46,599 bases of DNA from Sphaeroforma arctica JP610 (GCF_001186125.1 NW_014040512.1:116719-163317); one strand, 5' to 3'; positions 1 through 19,514 are shown, counted from the stretch's first letter. The notes: generated from the sequence alone by a model not told the origin. Program-made: numbers and translations.

Positions 1-318
1 TGCACGAATAGCCATCTTATAAGTATGCTCATAGTCGATGAGTTAAATTATGTATTATTTTAACTCTACTCTCGAGCTCTTCTAAGTCAGTCAGATTCTG
101 TGTAACGCTGGCTGGATGAACCATAGTCCCGTTAGATAGGGCAACTTCAGTGCCAGGAGGGGTAGACTCCTGAGATACGTAATTAACAACATTAGATTGC
201 TGAAGTATCTTCTTTAGTTGTTTCGCAACTTCTGGCTATTCTTTAAGCAGCGCTTTAAGTAGTTGAGTGCGAGCTTCGGGTTCTCTTAGAGCTTTGAGTC
301 TTTGATCCATGGCCTTAG

Positions 319-890
319 CTAGTTGTTTTTACGATCTAATACCGTCTCAATCGGCATTACCTCGACTTTTTTCTTGTTGGGTGCATGTGTTGTACGAGTC
401 TTGAATTTTTGTTCAAACTCCTTAGACTCCTCTAATTTAGCTAAGAACTCGGTTGAGGGTTTCCACTTAGTGGTACCTGCAGGACCGATGCGACAAACGA
501 TGGTGTGTTTCCAAGGTGTCTTCCTAATAGAATAGGATATCTGATACAGGAACGTGTCGGTTTCACGGTCGACATATATAGCCTCGTCTTGTATCATATT
601 AATTAAATCACGTGTCCATGGGTCGGAGCTACGTAAGGAACAACACAGCGTAATGGTAGATTTAGTAATATTAACATAATTTAATAACTGTGCGATAAGT
701 TGCCTAGGTGGGTTAACCCACACATTATGTTTTGATAAGTCAAGTTGAAAGGCATCACCTTTAGGATGAGTCAACGACCTATAATCAGAAACCTGTTTGT
801 TACGTTCTGCGGCGAACATATCAATAGTAAATGGACCTCATCTTGATTGAGCGAGGTTAAACCATTTCTTATTAAGCATCCAATTGGTTG
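319..890 (-). pseudogene. DIRS/Dam-type N6-adenine DNA methyltransferase-like domain of the Gypsy pol
   Basis: Reads WMLNKKWFNLAQSR*GPFTIDMFAAERN...DAFQLDLSKHNVWVNPPRQLI...PW. It is in frame with the RNase H ORF 838..1764 across a single TGA at an expected Trp. Motif I (IDMFA) and motif IV (NPP; AGG is one base from TGG, giving NPPW) are present. Confidence 0.8.
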
Positions 891-2305
891 CTAATAACTC
901 TATAACTGTTTTCTGGTAGTCAGGGACAAGTCGAGAGAGCATGTCAGGAAGATGATTATGTATTCCTGGTATGTGTGTAATGTTAAAAGCGAACTTAGCA
1001 ATAATGTCATGCCAGCGGCTCATCAACTGTGAATCAGGGTTCATGTCCTCTAAATATGTTAAAGACTTTTGATCACAGGCGACAGTGAAGTAACTTCCAT
1101 AGAGATAATCTTTAAACTGTCTTAGCGCAGTAACTATAGCAAGGAGCTCTTGTTTAACGGTAGGGTAATTTCGTTGACTCTTATTATAACTCTTGCTAAA
1201 GAATTGTATGTAGCGCGGTTTACCATTTATCGTTTGGTAAAGCACTCCACCTACCGCTCGATCTGAAGCATCGGTCGCTTCTTGGAATGGGACACCATCC
1301 ACAGGGTACTGCATGATGGGTGCGTCTATTACTTTACTTTTGACTAGCAGCTTTCCCAAAGGTCCTTTGTGCCGCCGTAGGTGACTGAAAGGCTTTAAGC
1401 AATGAGAAAGATGAGGTACCGAATCCGAGAAGAAGTTAACAAACCCACACACAGAGTTCACATCTCTTCCAGTAATCGGTGTTAATAAATCCAACAGAAG
1501 TTGTTTCTTGCCGGGATCAATTTTTACCCCTGCTGCAGATACCTTGTATCCAAGCAAGTGTATAATATCTTTAGCAAAAGAACACTTGTCCTCGTTAATC
1601 TTAAGTTTGGCATGGTTTAGTCGCTTTAAGACTTCCTTAACGAGGTTAGCATGTTCATGTGCTGTCTTTGTAAAGATAACTATATCATATAAATATACAG
1701 ATACATTATCCGACATGACCGCAAATAGTTCCATCATAACTTGTTGGAAGAAGGAAGGTAACATGTGTAAGCCTTCAGGTGCACCTTTAAACTAGTACTT
1801 CTTACCTTGCCAAGTAAAGGAAAAGTATTTCCTATGCGGCTCATATATTTGTAATTGATGGAATGCAGCTTTTTAAGTCTAACTTGGAAAAGATAGTCGC
1901 CCCTTCCATTTTGCGTAGTATCTCGCTTATCTTTGGTAAGGGAAAACTATGTTGCGGCATTAGTTCTTGATTGACGACAGGTCTAGTACTACTCTTGTTT
2001 TACTAAACGTTCCATCAGATTCATATTGATCGACCGCTAAGAGAGCTAAGTTAACTGGGGTTGCATCATAATTGATTTCAATTAGACCCTGCTTTAACCA
2101 ATCTTCAATTTGGGTTTTAACAACGTTTCCGTGTCTCCAACTCACGTAGTGAAGGACACTTCAACTTAGAGAAGTCAACATTTGTTAAGTCAAGCTTAAC
2201 GTACCCGTTAGAGAACTTAAACATACACCAGTCAGTTATTGCAATCTTCCTGTTATGTATAATTAAGTCCATAGTTATATCGGTAAAGTGCGGAATCATA
2301 TCCAT
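838..2305 (-). pseudogene. Gypsy reverse transcriptase and RNase H (frameshifted)
   Basis: Fragments KTRVVLDLSSIKN, AFHQLQI, FTWQGKKY, FKGAPEGL..LPSFFQQVM, YLYDIVIF (degenerate YxDD), LKINEDKC.F, LLGY, followed by RNase H motifs. Confidence 0.88.
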
Positions 2306-2757
2306 TGCTTCACCTTCGGAGGTTTAGGTATCTTTAACATATTATCATCTGACTGATCTTTATTTGGGTCTAACCCTTTTGGCAGATCAGTGAGAGTTGT
2401 ACCTAAACTGAGAAGATCAGTCATACCTATAATTAAATCGTATTTCTGAGACATTTCAGTAACGATTAGGTGAGTATTTACTTCTCTTCTATCTGACAAC
2501 ATTAGGTGTACATAGTCAATGGCTTCTTCGCAAGTGGTAACTTTGCCATTTCCCAAGATTAAATTAGTTGTTTCGTTATGGATAGTCACATCTGTAGCGT
2601 AGGCTACTCGGCGTGAGATAGCAGAGACTTCAGCCCCTGGATCAAAAAGTGCTACAACTTTTTCTCCATTTACATAAACGGTTTGAAATATACGTTCATC
2701 TCCTTTGGTATAGATTTTATTGAACTTTTTCTCATAATCTTGCTCTAGTGCACACAT
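2296..2757 (-). pseudogene. Retroviral-type aspartic protease of the Gypsy element
   Basis: VVALFDPGAEVSAIS (D-T/S-G-like motif) and the C-terminal DLIIGM motif. Confidence 0.82.
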
Positions 2758-2766
2758 ATGGAGCTG

Positions 2767-3840
2767 TCAGTGCTTAACTTGGACGTCCGGTATGTCCTTG
2801 CAATCATTTTTGTGCCAACCGTTAGTACCCTTGCAAGTAGTACAATCTTTCATATAGAGTCCAAAGTTTGGCTTGCCTGGTGCACACTTAACAGAGTCGT
2901 GTTTACCATTCCACTTGCCATCACGTTTAGTGAGGTTGTAACCACACTTCTTGCAAGGTGCTCTCTCCTTCCTTTCACCCTTTGGTTCAGTAGAAGTAGA
3001 GTCTTTACCACCTCCAACAATAGTGCGAGGTTTCTTAGTATTACGCGCAGTGTTATTCTCTATCGCGGTACGCTTAGCGGGCTGGGTAAAGCTCGAGGTA
3101 CTAAGTACTCTAGTAGATGGGTTATTATACTTTTGAACTATCTTCTCAAAGACGGACCAAGGCATAGATCGCAAATCGCCATAGGCGATGATATCATCAT
3201 TGACCTTCTTAAAAAGGTTAGCTCCCAGAGTCTCCATCATCTGACAAATTAATAAATATTCGCCAGTATAGGTACGACCTCCCATCCGAGTGTTCATATG
3301 TGTCCTATGAGCTAGAGCACCTCGAATAGTAGTATCGTTCGCAAAGGACTTGCGAGACTCTAGAAGTTCACGGTCACGTGCATCTTCAAAGAAGGCGTTA
3401 AGTATAATCTCATGCAACTGGCGTCAGGGTAGAGCTTTCCAGTTGGGCTCATGAGCCTTCAAGATAGATTTCCATTCCTCTGACTCACAAAAATGAATAA
3501 AGGCATTCATCATTTGCTTATCATTAAGGCTGGCAGACTCCTTAAGTTGGTCAAGGGCCTTCAGTGTCTCCACTGTACTCTCATTAGTAGAGAAATCGAC
3601 CTCAGCCTTCGCATTACCTAGCTGCTTTATAAAGCTTGGTTCGAAGCGTTCACGAGGCTCACGCTCAGTGCTATGGGCTGCTAGTGCCAAGATGAAGTAC
3701 ATCTCCTTTCTCTTGTTATCGATTAGATAGCGAATGTTATCCGCTTTCTTATCGTTAAGGTCAAAGTCATTCAATAGACGGTCCTCAAGGACTTGCATAC
3801 CAGAACGTAATAGCCTGAGACCATATTGTCTGGTTCTCAC
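2767..3840 (-). pseudogene. Gag-like protein of the Gypsy element
   Basis: Two in-frame ORFs (3424..3840 and 2767..3417) separated by one TGA. The C-terminus has CKKC...HDSVKC and CTTC...HKNDC knuckle-like motifs directly upstream of the protease. Confidence 0.65.
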
Positions 3841-4330
3841 TTCCTCGTCTTCAGAGCTAGAGTGGGTACTCTCTAGTGAGTTACTGATATAACGATTACC
3901 AAAGTCGTGATTACCAGGGTTAGATTATAAATGAGGATCGATGTCATGAGGGTGGTAAGACTCATCGATTTCCACGATCATAGCCTCTGACAGGGTTAGG
4001 TTTGTCGAGAGGATGGTCGATTGTAGTTTCTGAGGTATAGAGATTAAATCTTGAAAAGTTACCCACTTCACCAGCGGTAACTGGCTCGGTGGTAACCCTG
4101 CTGGCTGGTAAACCAGTGGGTCCCAGATTTGAAACCTGGCTCGGAATATTTTTTTCTTCGGTATAAGAAGAATATCGGCCACGTGGGATATGATCAAAGG
4201 GTCAGAAGTGCGGCAGTGGCTAGATCCTTTAAAAGCTCGACTTTGCAGTTCAAATGGCGTCGAGATTGAGAAAATCCAACCACTCGTTGTCGATTTATGG
4301 CGTCCCCAACATTTGCATCTTCCGCCCCAA

Positions 4331-4381
4331 CATTCAGTGGCTAGGCATTCAGTGGCGAGGCATTCAGTGGCGAGGCATTCA
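4331..4381. repeat. 15-bp tandem repeat (CATTCAGTGGC[T/G]AGG x3.4) in the Gypsy 5' leader
   Basis: Directly visible in the sequence. Confidence 0.9.
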
Positions 4382-4392
4382 ATAAAATTTCA

Positions 4393-4410
4393 CGAAATGG
4401 AACGCCACCA
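4393..4410 (-). promoter_or_regulatory. Putative primer-binding site TGGTGGCGTTCC...
   Basis: TGG-initiated motif 4 nt downstream of the putative LTR end ...TTATTAACA on the minus strand. The cognate tRNA was not identified. Confidence 0.55.
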
Positions 4411-4414
4411 TCTT

Positions 4415-4794
4415 TGTTAATAAGTGAATTTGGCTGACTTTTAGTAGTAGTAAACCGTCGATCTCGAGACGGTTCCTTCACTTGTTCAGGAGATATAGCC
4501 TTTCCAATATCTGACTTTTCGCGGTCAGATGGCGAGCTGAGGCCCTGGGCTACACTACTAGGAGACACACGGACGCTGGCGAGCCTTTCCGCGGCAGTTG
4601 AGACCTCCACTTCCGAAGCTTTAGGGTCCGACGAGTCATCCTCAGAGTTTTCCTCAGAACCAAGCTCAGAAACGGCCTCCTCTATAGCTCCAACGGCAGG
4701 CTCAGTACCAGACTGACCAGCGTCCCCAGTAACCTCAGGAATTTCAACAGGCTTAGCAGGCTTAGAGCTGGCTGCTCCCTTGCCTTTACTAAAA
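4415..4794 (-). repeat. Putative 5' LTR (~380 bp) of the Gypsy element
   Basis: Ends in ...TTATTAACA followed by the PBS. Begins TTTTAGTAA, a 7/9 inverted match to that end, exactly where the Ngaro RT homology stops. The second LTR is outside the window. Confidence 0.55.
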
Positions 4795-6650
4795 TCATCA
4801 ACCCAACGTGCAAAGAACAGTTGAGCTTGGCGCAGTACCCAGTCGAAAGTGGAGGCCAAAGTCTCGTATAGTGCGAGAGAGCTTGCCAAACCGAATGGTA
4901 GGCACAATTCAAAATAGTAGAGACCTCGCCATTCGAAGCCTAGGAGTGAAACGTCATGTTTGTGGACTGGCGTGAGCCGGAAGGCTCCTACGATATTTAT
5001 ATCGCTTATAGGCGTGCCGGGTGGATGACTATTTATCCCGTCAATAAAATAACGCAAACTAGTGTATCGGATTATTACATAAGCTATGTGTGAATTAATG
5101 CCTTTCTGCTTGCCCTTTCTTGGTTTATGAGAGGTCGTGGATGCGCCGAAATTTCTCGGACCCACCCGGGCGGATTTTAGCTATTCCGCTTAAATGTAAT
5201 ATGGTATAATAAGGAGAATCTAATTGTGACTTAGTAAAAGATCTTAAAAGCGTAGATTTGTGTATATGTGTTTGTGCGTGCGGCAATCGTTGTAGCCAAT
5301 GTGTGTGCCAGAACAAACATTATGGATGAGCTTTTCTTTTAATATAGTGTTATAACCTAAAAGAGTGGATTCTGGCTTATTGTGATCAGGTACCGACGGA
5401 GGGAGCGTAGACTGAGCTAGAGCCGTAAAATTAAGGTGTATGTATGGTGATTGCTGCGGTATCCCCATCGCGAGTGTGGCGAGGGAGCATTGGATGTGAT
5501 TTTGTACTGTTATGTGTTGCGTTTTGATGGGTGTGGTTGTGGGGCTGATATATCATTCGTGTTTGGATGGGTCGTGCTGGTGCGAGCCGTGTGTGTTTTT
5601 CGACTTGCACATGGAGCGGTTGCAAAGGTGTTTGTATGAACACTTTGTGGCGCAGATTTCGGTCTTGGGGGTGTTGGGCGGCTTGGTCTGCTTCACATTC
5701 TCGCATACACACAAGGACCTGGTAATGTCGCAGTAGTCACAGAAAGTGTGTGTCAGTCTATTTCTGGGTGTGCATAGGAATCGAGCGATAATGTCTGGAT
5801 CGATATTGGCCAGGCGTGTGGTTGCCTCATATCTGTCAAAAACCCCTCTGTGTTCTGGGTCGAGCGCAGCAACGGAACTTGAAGTCATATCGTCTAGGTA
5901 TGTTGTCAGGCAGCACAAGTGAGACAAGTGGTCGTCGATGGCTGTAGAGTCTGTTCTGAATCCGTCGTTGTACATAAAGGAGGCTGCAAACACGGCGGTG
6001 AATGCGCGAATCACGTCTGCGGAGGACGTGAAAGCCTCTTCCTTAGCCTTAATTATCGCGATGCCTGTTTTGTCAATTGTAAGTCCACTAGCTCTCTCCT
6101 GAAGGTGAGCTGGTCGGAAAGTACGCATCATATCGGTGAGGGCGACGGTCTTACAAATCGTAAATTTATTCTTGACCGAGTCAGGCAACGTTGGTAGAAG
6201 GGAGCGAAGAGTGGCATCGGCGTCAAGCTGGGTTCTATCCTTAGTCTGCGAAGACCGAGTTGCAAGTTGCACCTACAGATGTTGATTCTCCTCCTTGGCG
6301 GTAATCCTTGCTTCTTAGTGGCGCTGTTGAGAGGATTCTCTGAATTGCTGAAATTCCTTGTTTGATTCGATTTGCGTCTGGACTAGTCATTGATTGAGGC
6401 TTTAAGAGCGGTTATTGTCTCAAACTCGGAGTCGGAACCCGTATTGTTGTCCATACGATGTTTCTTGTAAGGTGGTTTGTAGGGCTCGTCCACTTTATTG
6501 GTTGTCTCAGAGGCGTCATCTGTAACATTCTGGGTGGTATCAGAGTCGCCCGTAGTGGGATAGTGCCGCTTTGAGAAAGAATCGAAAGTCTGGAATTACA
6601 AATCATGAGACCGTGTTTTTCTGAGTTCGTGTATTCTTATAACATACTTT
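4795..6650 (-). mobile_element. Degenerate Ngaro/DIRS-type (tyrosine-recombinase class) retrotransposon: gag-like ORF1 plus the N-terminal half of RT
   Basis: RT motifs G.HIGY, KFRRIHDLS, AFRL.PV...D..LLGFEWRGLYY.E.CLPFGLASS, WVDDF. ORF1 (5553..6272) ends in a Cys/His-rich C..C.YKH.C...C...H region. RNase H and recombinase are not seen in the window. Confidence 0.8.
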
Positions 6651-8371: not shown

Positions 8372-8555
8372 TCGCTCACTGAACAAAACTTTACAACAAA
8401 TGAGATTTGCTACTTTCCCATGAGCAAAATTAATACAATTTCTAGGTTTTCATATATCCGGAGAAGATTTTAAAATTGACTCTAGTAAGGTAGAACATTT
8501 CTTAGACTAACGTACACCGACTATGTCAGGGACGTAAAGAGTAGCGGATGTGAGT

Positions 8556-8700
8556 TGTGGACAAAGTATCCTATGTGGGTATCTAGAACCGGATCAGGGG
8601 ACCGGATCTAAGAGAAGAGTTTAGGACCGGACCAGAGGACCGGACTGACTAGTGAAATAGATACTTCCATAAGATAAAAGTGATGACTCATCCGAAACCA
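8556..8700 (+). repeat. Dispersed repeat (LTR-like fragment starting TGTGGACAAAGTA, GGACCGG-rich), copy 1
   Basis: Inverted diverged copy at ~16690-16855. Confidence 0.6.
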
Positions 8701-10565: not shown

Positions 10566-11181
10566 ACAAGACTTGCTCTTCGTGTAAAATCCAGGGCATT
10601 CTAACATTCAGATATACATGCATATATGTATTGTAAACTTCAGAGTATGCATTCTAAGTTCTACTATATCGAGTAAACATATGGCAATTGAAGTCAGTTA
10701 GTATTTAGCCTTTGTAGCATGTGTAAAAGTGATTGTAAATATTAGCTGACCAGGCTGACTATACCGTATACTTATCATTAATAGTTTGATATAGTACGCC
10801 AACAGCTCGATCTGAAGCGTCGGTTGTTATTTGGAATGGAACACCGTCTACGGGGTATTGCATTTCTTTACTCACAAGACTTGCTCTTCTAGTAAAATCC
10901 AGGGCATTCTAACATTCAGATATACATACATGTATGTATTGTAAACTTCAGAGTATACATTCTAAGTTCTACTATATCGAGTAAACATATGGCAATTGAA
11001 GTCAGTTAGTATTTAGCCTTTGTAGCATGTGTAAGAGTGATTGTAAATATTGGCTGACCAGGTTGACTATACCGTATGCGTACCATTAATAGTTTGATAT
11101 AGTACGCCAACAGCTCGATCTGAAGCGTCGGTTACTATTTGGAATGGAACACCGTCTACTGGGTATTCCATTTCTTTACTC
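10566..11181. repeat. 308-bp tandem duplication containing a Gypsy RNase H fragment
   Basis: Units 10566-10873 and 10874-11181. Each encodes (minus strand) YPVDGVPFQI.TDASDRAVGVLYQTIN, nearly identical to the RNase H at ~1230-1315. Confidence 0.9.
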
Positions 11182-18164: not shown

Positions 18165-18238
18165 TCTCTGTTAACTCAGTTGGTTAGAGTGCGGACCTAA
18201 TAAGTCCGAAGTCACCAGGTCGAGCCTGGTACGGAGAA
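18165..18238 (+). tRNA. tRNA-Ile (anticodon AAT), atypical
   Basis: Acceptor stem TCTCTGT/ACGGAGA; D stem ACTC/GAGT; anticodon stem CGGAC/GTCCG with loop CTAATAA (AAT at 18199-18201); T stem ACCAG/CTGGT; discriminator A; T6 run at 18244-18249 as a Pol III terminator. Confidence 0.88.
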
Positions 18239-18865: not shown

Positions 18866-19514
18866 TTGTAACTGTACCGTGTGCTGGTCAACCATCTGTA
18901 CGCCGAAGTGGTGTGCGACACTGTCTCCGTGACACCCAAAACCATTGACGAGTTCCGCCGCCTCGTGATGGCGGATCTGCTGCCTATGATGCCGTCTATG
19001 ACAAACGCGTATGTCGTCTGGCCCGAGCTTTACACGTGCCTGGTCGACGCGGCCCGTGTTACGGTATCCGTTATGGACATGGAATTGACCCAAACCGCCG
19101 AGCTCGTAGACGCCAAGTATAATAGACCTCGCAAGCTTTACGGTGGACCAGAAGAGACGATATATTTCCGTCGCGAGGTGCGAAAATCGAGTTTTAGAAA
19201 GTTTGGATCAGACTGGTCCGTGTCCGTCTCGCGCGCCGGCGATTTCTTCCTGTACAGTTGGTTGGATATAACACTACCCTCAGGTAAGCTTAACAACAAC
19301 GACCCCAACAAGCGCCTGCATTGGACACACAAAGTGGGTCTAAACATGCTCAAGCACGTTTCTCTAACCTTTAACAACATATGCGCGTTCAGCTTTGACA
19401 AAATTTCGATGGACTTCTGGACCAATTTCACGACCCCCACGTCGCACCCACGTTGGTAACAACAATGACATTGGTAATGTCAACGCGCTGATCCAACCGC
19501 ACCGTGCCGGCGAT
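18866..19514 (+). other. Endogenous viral element (649-bp insert) flanked by AAATC direct repeats
   Basis: AAATC at 18861-18865 and 19515-19519. Removing the insert restores the LINE frame NQN-HRL, which aligns with copy 1 (GHAS..HRL...W.L.Y). Confidence 0.82.
19079..19514 (+). pseudogene. MCP: N-terminal fragment of an NCLDV double-jelly-roll major capsid protein, iridovirus/marseillevirus-like
   Basis: IDLASF (alternative frame, 19122-19139), LYGGPEETIYFRREVRKSS, FGSDWSVSVSRAGDFFLYSWLDITLP, LHWTHKVGLNMLKHVSLTFN, FDKISMDFWTNFTTP, then after a frameshift NDIGNVNALIQP. These are colinear with iridovirid MCP motifs recalled from memory (IDIATF, YGG..A..YFVRE.RKS, FGQEWSV.ISRAGDYL, W..N..HN, FN, FD...LDFW..FT.P, MIGN...LI.P). 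Confidence 0.9.

What the first reader, a model, noticed from the sequence alone, without database searches (positions are those of the whole stretch)
1..1764. Ty3/Gypsy retrotransposon with an N6-adenine methyltransferase-like domain between RNase H and integrase
Seen: gag-protease-RT-RNase H of Gypsy type, continuing in frame (one TGA at a Trp position) into W.L....F......GPFTIDMFA..N...DAF.......W.NPP...I. After a linker comes ESRVKIIHNLTH, resembling the integrase zinc finger. Established: this MT domain is the usual RNase H-adjacent module of DIRS1-like elements, which lack a protease and DDE integrase. Inference: a chimeric LTR lineage (PR-RT-RH-MT-INT) that might mark its own cDNA or insertion with 6mA. 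A second RNase H relic at 10.8-11.2 kb shows the family is repeated.
Basis: partly seen in the sequence, partly recalled or inferred. Interest (0 to 1): 0.78.

Follow-up and report, generated by a model that had tools for sequence, protein, structure and literature searches.

The report
Dead gypsy retrotransposon carrying adenine methylase
This is a broken copy of a highly repeated jumping gene, likely from the single-celled animal relative Sphaeroforma, that carries an adenine-methylase-like domain between its RNase H and integrase; the design is real but was described in a 2026 preprint, and whether the domain methylates anything is untested.

Summary
The minus strand holds a decayed Ty3/Gypsy pol: protease, RT, RNase H, a Dam-like domain (481-894), a linker and the start of the integrase zinc finger at the window edge. 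An intact relative (P0002, 80-95% identical per domain) continues into a DDE integrase, not a tyrosine recombinase. RT and Dam trees both place the copy in one clade with an Abeoforma whisleri protein, and the RT falls apart from DIRS-like RTs. A Sphaeroforma arctica protein fragment is 88% identical. This is the 'Ichthyosporean DAM-LTR' lineage of bioRxiv 10.64898/2026.05.21.726589, which also reports 6mA enrichment on such copies and a negative E. coli assay. This scan has found DAM-LTRs before on other DNA (23 notes).

Added here: the in-frame stop and the NPPR motif are private lesions of this copy. Variants among family copies are mostly synonymous (16 of 21), so the domain is under selection. 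However, P0002 and one deep subfamily alter the catalytic motif. The lineage also carries a cryptic C-terminal chromodomain-like fold, although the preprint says it lacks one. LTRs and enzyme activity were not tested.

The parts
1..73 (-). Start of the integrase HHCC zinc finger, frameshifted at 33-34; the DDE core lies about 120 nt beyond the window edge
   Evidence: Aligns with P0002 910-934; P0002 rve starts at residue 974; clade alignment
74..480 (-). Poorly conserved MT-integrase linker, with a frameshift near 325-337
   Evidence: P0002 and SARC_08637 alignments; 2-29% identity among relatives
481..894 (-). Dam-like N6-adenine methyltransferase domain (DMFA 811-822, NPPR 703-714, TPW 511-519), with a private stop at 838-840
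   Evidence: PF05869 E 6e-5; 80% identical to P0002 MT; variants; weak methyltransferase fold matches for the P0003 domain
922..1344 (-). Ty3/Gypsy-type RNase H
   Evidence: PF17917 E 5e-28, PF17919 E 1e-24; 95% identical to P0002
1489..2151 (-). Reverse transcriptase, broken (stops, out-of-frame stretch near 1870-1965, YLYD for YLDD)
   Evidence: PF00078; tblastn with P0002; trees
2419..2682 (-). Aspartic protease (DPGA)
   Evidence: PF13650 E 8e-9, PF13975 E 2e-8
2767..3981 (-). gag-like frame with two C-terminal Cys/His clusters, in frame with the protease, interrupted by stops
   Evidence: Position and translation; covered by family contigs; no Pfam match, so the label is inferred
4075..4155 (+). 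tRNA-like cassette (A-box-like, B-box-like, T7 run) antisense to gag in the 5' leader; function unknown, not called as a tRNA
   Evidence: Sequence and post-hoc pattern scan; contigs of other copies bridge it to gag; ARAGORN and Rfam negative
10771..11171 (-). Two short RNase H fragments of a related, more diverged family in a 308-nt tandem duplication
   Evidence: blastn 78% over 94-95 nt; tblastn E 1e-10 to 2e-11; repeat family D9

Best explanation
This is a dead copy of a high-copy Ty3/Gypsy retrotransposon whose Pol carries a Dam-like domain between RNase H and integrase, likely from Sphaeroforma and likely the Ichthyosporean DAM-LTR lineage described in 2026; in active copies the domain would most likely methylate adenines on the newly made cDNA so that the inserted copy stays transcribed. 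Shown here: the domain order, the breaks in this copy, the integrase in intact relatives, joint descent of RT and MT in one clade, and purifying selection on the MT. Inferred from general Ty3/Gypsy biology: gag-pol is translated, packaged into particles, cut by the protease, reverse transcribed and integrated by the DDE integrase. Inferred and untested: the MT travels in the particle next to RT/RNase H and uses SAM to put 6mA on the cDNA or RNA:DNA intermediate; host AMT1 then maintains the mark at ApT and keeps the copy in permissive chromatin (the preprint's model). A degenerate chromodomain-like module at the end of the integrase would help choose the insertion site. My odds: identity and architecture about 0.95; catalytic self-marking as the main function about 0.5.
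For: P0002 (1400 aa, one frame) has protease 27-112, RT 259-408, RNase H 473-601, Dam 638-703 and rve 974-1071, and is collinear with window 2757-1. An MT profile searched against 1.84 billion representatives gave 5,192 hits at E<=1e-3. Of the 26 hits scanned with Pfam, several full-length ones share the RT-RH-Dam-INT order, e.g. P0050, P0053, P0058, P0059, P0060. RT tree of 55 rows: the window copy sits in an 11-row clade (support 100) with P0054, and 22 DIRS-like RTs are split off at 99. MT tree of 68 rows: the same rows plus 5 fragments form a 16-row clade at 99. P0054 is from Abeoforma whisleri. SARC_08637 of S. arctica is 88% identical over 19% of the query. In the 4 runs laid, the stop and the NPPR Arg are replaced by Trp codons in >=99% and >=94% of depth at those bases. 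Of 37 variant rows over 430-960, the 16 private to this copy are 3 synonymous and 13 not, while the 21 segregating among copies are 16 synonymous and 5 not (neutral expectation 0.26; Fisher p 8e-4). MT identity to P0002 in 8 relatives is 29-67%, against 39-61% for RT and 2-29% for the linker. NPP[W/F] is kept in 14 of 16 clade members. The preprint reports more 6mA and more expression on DAM-LTRs than on other LTRs in S. arctica and A. whisleri.
Against: No activity has been shown: the preprint's E. coli expression of eukaryotic DAMs gave no rise in 6mA. The nearest intact relative P0002 reads CPPW. A variant at 703, which on the family background gives Cys instead of the motif IV aromatic, holds 63-82% of summed contig depth in 3 of 4 runs and almost none in X5; depth is not copy number. 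The 6mA enrichment could come from host AMT1 acting on transcribed copies. The MT model is weak (pLDDT 61.9; best Z 5.5, rmsd 3.8 over 121 residues). LTRs, PBS and PPT were not seen, and the host is inferred from protein similarity only.
Confidence: 0.6

Rival explanations
1. The domain is kept for a non-catalytic job, such as binding nucleic acid or SAM, acting as a structural spacer in Pol, or tethering the integration complex to 6mA-rich active chromatin; the 6mA seen on copies is written by host AMT1.
For: Motif IV is altered in P0002 (CPPW) and in a deep subfamily in 3 of 4 runs while the rest of the domain stays conserved. The E. coli assay was negative, and the preprint says eukaryotic DAMs align to only part of the prokaryotic enzyme. 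Unchecked scan notes report DAM-LTRs with lost catalytic motifs in other genomes.
Against: 14 of 16 clade members keep NPP[W/F] across deep divergence. D.FA is kept in the full-length members where my pattern could read it (not in P0054 or P0055).
Confidence: 0.27
2. The domain is an active N6-adenine methyltransferase, but its substrate is the element's RNA or the RNA:DNA hybrid (stability, packaging or escape from surveillance), not the integrated DNA.
For: It sits next to RNase H in both DIRS-like and LTR elements. The best fold matches include RNA m6A enzymes (cap-specific adenosine MTase Z 5.3, DIMT1/KsgA Z 4.9-5.1), and DIRS-like relatives weakly match PCIF1. No DNA methylation was seen in E. 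coli.
Against: The fold matches are weak and tied with DNA adenine MTases (M.BseCI Z 4.9). The 6mA enrichment on genomic DAM-LTR copies fits a DNA target more simply.
Confidence: 0.1
3. The junction is a local accident: a DIRS fragment nested in, or misassembled with, a Gypsy copy.
For: A DIRS-like relic lies just upstream at 4341-6272, and SARC_08637 itself is a chimera of this family's MT/linker with a DIRS-like RT piece.
Against: RNase H runs into MT in frame; single-frame relatives from independent sources share the order; RT and MT trees agree on one clade; family contigs bridge RNase H and MT (e.g. X16 record 10, 811-1093).
Confidence: 0.01

Closest known systems
Ichthyosporean DAM-LTR lineage (Fernandez-Moreno et al., bioRxiv 10.64898/2026.05.21.726589; whole main text read, supplements not available)
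   Same: [quoted passage not shown] Here an A. whisleri protein falls in the same RT and MT clade and an S. arctica fragment is 88% identical.
   Different: This copy is dead. The preprint says the lineage lacks chromodomains; I find a sub-threshold chromodomain-like module after the integrase, including in the A. whisleri member. The main text has no occurrence of 'tRNA', so the tRNA-like leader cassette is not discussed there. I could not compare with their sequences or figures.
DIRS1-like tyrosine-recombinase retrotransposons (RT-RH-MT)
   Same: Same Dam-like domain directly after RNase H. Most of the 150 listed MT hits that have an RT end with the MT (46 of 62), and 30 of 31 metagenome loci best match DIRS-like proteins.
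   Different: This element has an aspartic protease, a Gypsy-side RT, and an HHCC/DDE integrase after the MT in the same frame.
[quoted passage not shown]
   Same: Integrase followed by a GPY/F, SH3-like module and a chromodomain-like fold in relatives; P0064, P0078 and P0080 have RT-RH-Dam-(INT)-Chromo with strong Pfam Chromo hits.
   Different: Those proteins lie outside the window's clade in both trees. The module in P0002 and P0003 has no Pfam hit and by eye lacks most of the aromatic cage positions (cage positions recalled).
Phage Dam-like family PF05869
   Same: D.FA and NPP[W/F] motifs; one weak phage hit, a putative methyltransferase of Campylobacter phage F341 (E 6e-3).
   Different: Fused inside a eukaryotic retroelement Pol; activity not shown.

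Membership tests
Ty3/Gypsy LTR retrotransposon | pol order protease-RT-RNase H-integrase | tested here: met
   Window has PR, RT, RH and the start of the zinc finger; collinear P0002 has rve at 974-1071
Ty3/Gypsy LTR retrotransposon | RT groups with Ty3/Gypsy, not DIRS | tested here: met
   Trees (split support 96 and 99); references were fetched proteins, some named ty3-gypsy or Tf2 by their source, not a curated set
Ty3/Gypsy LTR retrotransposon | HHCC finger and DDE catalytic triad | tested here: met
   H-H, C-C and D-D-E columns aligned in 11 proteins including P0002 and P0003; in the window only the first His pair is present; Ty3 integrase is the top Foldseek row for the C-terminal model, E 7e-3
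Ty3/Gypsy LTR retrotransposon | two LTRs, PBS, PPT, target-site duplication | tested here: inconclusive
   The 3' end is beyond the window, no genome is held, and the metagenome scan gave no locus of this clade
Ichthyosporean DAM-LTR lineage | Dam-like domain inside a Ty3/Gypsy Pol | tested here: met
Ichthyosporean DAM-LTR lineage | Dam domain and RT in one clade with ichthyosporean elements | tested here: met
   Clade with A. whisleri P0054 in RT (100) and MT (99) trees; S. arctica SARC_08637 88% identical.
Ichthyosporean DAM-LTR lineage | no chromodomain at Pfam level (the preprint screened at E 1e-5) | tested here: met
   No Chromo row for P0002, P0003 or P0054; but custom profiles and a fold search show a cryptic one, so the description, not the membership, needs amending
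Ichthyosporean DAM-LTR lineage | AMT1-encoding host and 6mA enrichment on copies | not testable with these tools
   No genome or modification data here; reported for S. arctica in the preprint
DIRS1-like elements | tyrosine recombinase instead of DDE integrase | tested here: not met
   rve follows the MT in P0002, P0003, P0004
DIRS1-like elements | no aspartic protease; MT ends the RT-RH frame | tested here: not met
   Protease at 2419-2682; 620 residues follow the MT in P0002
Dam-like N6-adenine MTase (PF05869) | motif IV NPP[Y/F/W] and D.FA | tested here: inconclusive
   Met in 14 of 16 clade members; not met in this copy (NPPR, private) or P0002 (CPPW); a Cys variant is deep in 3 of 4 runs
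Dam-like N6-adenine MTase (PF05869) | SAM-dependent methyltransferase fold | tested here: inconclusive
   Model pLDDT 61.9; no Foldseek match at E<=0.001; the top 15 VIA-align rows are all methyltransferases, but Z is only 4.5-5.5
Dam-like N6-adenine MTase (PF05869) | catalytic adenine methylation | not testable with these tools
   Needs an assay; the preprint's E. coli test was negative
Chromoviruses | chromodomain at the integrase C-terminus | tested here: inconclusive
   Outside the window; 8 of 11 clade proteins with a C-terminus match an outside chromo profile at E<0.05; P0002 and P0003 match only the clade's own profile (22.5 and 14.7 bits vs max 3.1 in 400 shuffles); fold Z 6.6, rmsd 2.5 over 57 residues
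Chromoviruses | RT placed among named chromovirus clades | not tested
   No curated reference set was fetched

The most novel reading that the evidence does not exclude
The ichthyosporean DAM-LTRs are hidden chromoviruses: the whole lineage carries a cryptic chromodomain, and the Sphaeroforma family prospers with an altered catalytic motif. The Dam-like domain and chromodomain together read, rather than write, active 6mA-marked chromatin to steer integration, and an antisense tRNA-like Pol III cassette in the leader supplies or replaces the primer for reverse transcription.
Probability: 0.1. Interest if true: 0.62.

Novelty: already known. Interest (0 to 1): 0.22.

Why it matters
If the self-marking model holds, a retrotransposon carries its own writer of an activating DNA mark and inserts already licensed for transcription, the mirror image of silencing by cytosine methylation. 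That idea, and this lineage in this likely host, are already in a 2026 preprint, so this dead copy adds little. The useful additions are modest. There is evidence of purifying selection on the domain. Natural motif IV variants (NPPW, CPPW, NPPC) exist within one family and make the open question, catalytic or not, testable with existing nanopore data. A cryptic chromodomain amends the preprint's description of the lineage.

Tried and rejected
No genome is held for this window, so the element could not be extended leftward in its own locus.

Scans for DNA of the clade: metagenome contigs gave 31 loci from 76 pattern matches, 30 of 31 best matching DIRS-like proteins and 1 (L023) a different DAM-LTR; viral contigs gave none from 26 pattern matches. 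LTRs, PBS and PPT therefore stay untested.

Expression: no RNA holder listed; runs marked RNA are guesses, so I draw nothing from them.

Structure searches: the PDB sequence search with the MT profile found nothing at E<=10; Foldseek gave no match at E<=0.001 for either model; no ESM Atlas result was obtained.

tRNA-like cassette: not called by ARAGORN (window scan, or 3901-4500 down to 70% threshold, where two other low-grade calls appeared) or by Rfam; its acceptor and D stems do not pair in this copy. My pattern (1 hit in the window, 0 in 30 Markov controls) was written after seeing the site and also misses the real tRNA-Ile, so it is not a proper test.

Composition: the element shows no depletion of six 4-mers such as GATC that would hint at a target site.

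EVMPIETVLDRK in the linker looked like a chromodomain start by eye; I dropped it because the P0002 counterpart is unremarkable linker and the chromo profiles hit only the far C-terminus.

The careful RT tree did not finish (one search is the quick tree). A DIRS donor for the MT is not claimed: the deep branches in the MT tree have support 83-84 and no outgroup. The 'DIRS-like' label rests on architecture (MT at the C-terminus); I did not look for their recombinases.

Look-ups of earlier scan notes by place and by sequence returned nothing.

Full report
Verdict. The feature is real and is a dead copy of a kind of element that was described in May 2026, very likely of the same lineage and in the same or a closely related host.

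What the window shows. On the minus strand, a gag-like frame (about 3981-2767, no Pfam match) leads in frame into an aspartic protease (PF13650 E 8e-9), then RT (PF00078), RNase H (PF17917 E 5e-28) and a Dam-like domain. Read with X at the single TGA, the RT-RH-MT stretch gives PF05869 at E 6e-5, 23.2 bits, which is under the curated cut-off of 28.1. After a linker and a frameshift comes ESRVKIIHNLTH at 38-73. The copy has several stops and frameshifts, a 30-nt deletion at 1348, YLYD for YLDD and NPPR for NPPW, so it cannot be active.

What lies beyond the edge. No genome is held. A search with the MT region among longer proteins returned 3 hits from 117 candidates. P0002 (1400 aa) is collinear with window 2757-1 and is 86%, 95% and 80% identical in the RT part, RNase H and MT. 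Its domains run protease, RT, RNase H, Dam, rve. The window ends at its residue 934, about 40 codons before the integrase core. The HHCC and DDE residues align across 11 proteins.

Relatives and trees. A 4-sequence MT profile found 5,192 of 1.84 billion representatives at E<=1e-3; 150 were listed. Among all proteins fetched, 62 had both RT and MT: 16 with the MT internal and 46 with it terminal. The RT tree used the 16, a random 22 of the 46, 16 of 30 RTs without MT, and the window copy (FastTree). The window copy falls in an 11-row clade (support 100) of MT-internal elements on the Gypsy side; the 22 DIRS-like RTs are split off at 99. An earlier quick IQ-TREE of 42 rows agreed. The MT tree (68 rows) recovers the same 11 plus 5 fragments as one clade at 99; deeper branches are weak, so I name no donor. 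One clade member, P0054, is from Abeoforma whisleri; of the 10 proteins looked up it is the only one with an organism. SARC_08637 of Sphaeroforma arctica JP610 is 88% identical over 19% of the query, covering the MT end and linker. The host is therefore inferred to be Sphaeroforma.

Copy number and selection. Four of the 24 listed runs were laid on 1-4400 and gave 12,042, 42,493, 4,268 and 169 contigs. On 430-960 (three of those runs plus X15), 37 variant rows passed the 20% share. Sixteen are private to this copy, including the stop and the NPPR Arg, where other copies read Trp; of these 3 are synonymous. Twenty-one segregate among copies or strains; of these 16 are synonymous, against a neutral expectation of 0.26 (Fisher p 8e-4). 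Leaving out three rows at the RNase H junction gives 3 of 15 and 14 of 19 (counted by hand). This is a rough proxy, not a codon model, and depth is not copy number. MT identity among relatives (29-67%) resembles that of RT (39-61%) and far exceeds the linker (2-29%).

Evidence against simple catalysis. NPP[W/F] is kept in 14 of 16 clade members, but P0002 reads CPPW. A variant at 703 that gives Cys at the aromatic position on the family background holds 74%, 63% and 82% of depth in X1, X7 and X15 and almost none in X5. The MT model of P0003 is weak (pLDDT 61.9). Its top 15 structural matches are all methyltransferases, but at Z 4.5-5.5 only.

What is in print. A search for gypsy, retrotransposon, adenine methyltransferase and DIRS gave two papers. 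I read the whole main text of bioRxiv 10.64898/2026.05.21.726589; its supplements and figures were not available. [quoted passage not shown] It reports more 6mA and more expression on these copies than on other LTRs, a negative E. coli assay, and the model of cDNA marking followed by AMT1 maintenance. Of PMC5890265 I saw two passages, on Dam-like domains in DIRS. Of PMC10886601 I saw 12 passages, on tRNA-derived sequence in the LTRs of non-autonomous elements. Searches listed nothing further on this lineage. The scan's own notes hold 23 similar findings in at least 3 other genomes; I had found the preprint before seeing them.

A small correction to the preprint. It says the ichthyosporean lineage lacks chromodomains. 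At Pfam level that holds for P0002, P0003 and P0054, though P0004 has Chromo at E 2e-4. A profile from four outside chromodomains, run on 15 proteins, matches the C-terminus of 8 of the 11 clade members that have one at E<0.05, best in the A. whisleri protein (E 9e-8); the other 4 proteins were outside the clade or truncated. A profile of 8 clade segments finds P0002 at 22.5 bits and P0003 at 14.7 bits, against at most 3.1 in 400 shuffles. A model of the P0003 C-terminus, built with P0002 and P0004 in its alignment, has chromo or chromoshadow domains as its top six matches (best Z 6.6, rmsd 2.5 over 57 residues), which is suggestive, not decisive. This region lies outside the window, and by eye the aromatic cage is largely lost in P0002 and P0003 (cage positions recalled).

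Mechanism. The most likely reading is that active copies replicate as ordinary Ty3/Gypsy elements and carry the MT into the particle, where it would methylate adenines on the cDNA or hybrid, after which host AMT1 would keep the mark and the insertion would stay transcribed. Architecture and selection are shown; every step from packaging onward is inferred. A non-catalytic role is the main rival, an RNA substrate a lesser one, and a nesting artefact is excluded.

Score. Already known; interest 0.22, for the natural motif IV variants and the cryptic chromodomain rather than for the architecture.

Noticed in passing
window 4075-4155 (+): tRNA-like layout antisense to gag, about 95 nt upstream of its start: A-box-like at 4082, B-box-like 46 nt later (canonical spacing), then a T7 run. 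Contigs of other copies bridge it to gag (X7 record 31, 3865-4288). Not called by ARAGORN or Rfam; could be a captured tRNA-derived promoter or an extended primer site.
   Followed up: partly
window 4341-6272 (-): Decayed DIRS/Ngaro-like element directly upstream: RT fragment (RVT_1 E 0.01; tblastn to DIRS-like P0065 E 4e-7) and a gag-like frame at 5553-6272.
   Followed up: partly
window 8433-8585 (+): Short RT fragment closer to P0003 than to P0002, i.e. a relic of a sister family.
   Followed up: partly
window 18872-19459 (+): Frame matching the N-terminus of a large-DNA-virus major capsid protein (PF16903, E 8e-9): a likely endogenised viral fragment, next to a tRNA-Ile gene at 18165-18238.
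   Followed up: no
window 23977-24525 (+): Exon matching prokaryotic-type cytochrome b561 (PF01292, E 2e-13) in a eukaryotic gene; possible horizontal transfer.
   Followed up: no
window 31789-33099 (-): Host gene frame with C1 and SH2 domains, in keeping with a holozoan host.
   Followed up: no
proteins P0079 and P0112: Elements with protease, endonuclease/exonuclease/phosphatase domain, Dam, a very divergent RT, RNase H and integrase zinc finger; may correspond to the Euglena-type chimeras of the preprint.
   Followed up: no
protein P0006 (SARC_08637): The annotated S. arctica gene model joins this family's MT end and linker to a DIRS-like RT piece, probably a mis-spliced model over nested elements.
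   Followed up: partly
L023 2711-4810: Metagenome contig with a DAM-LTR of a different clade, best match P0080.
   Followed up: no
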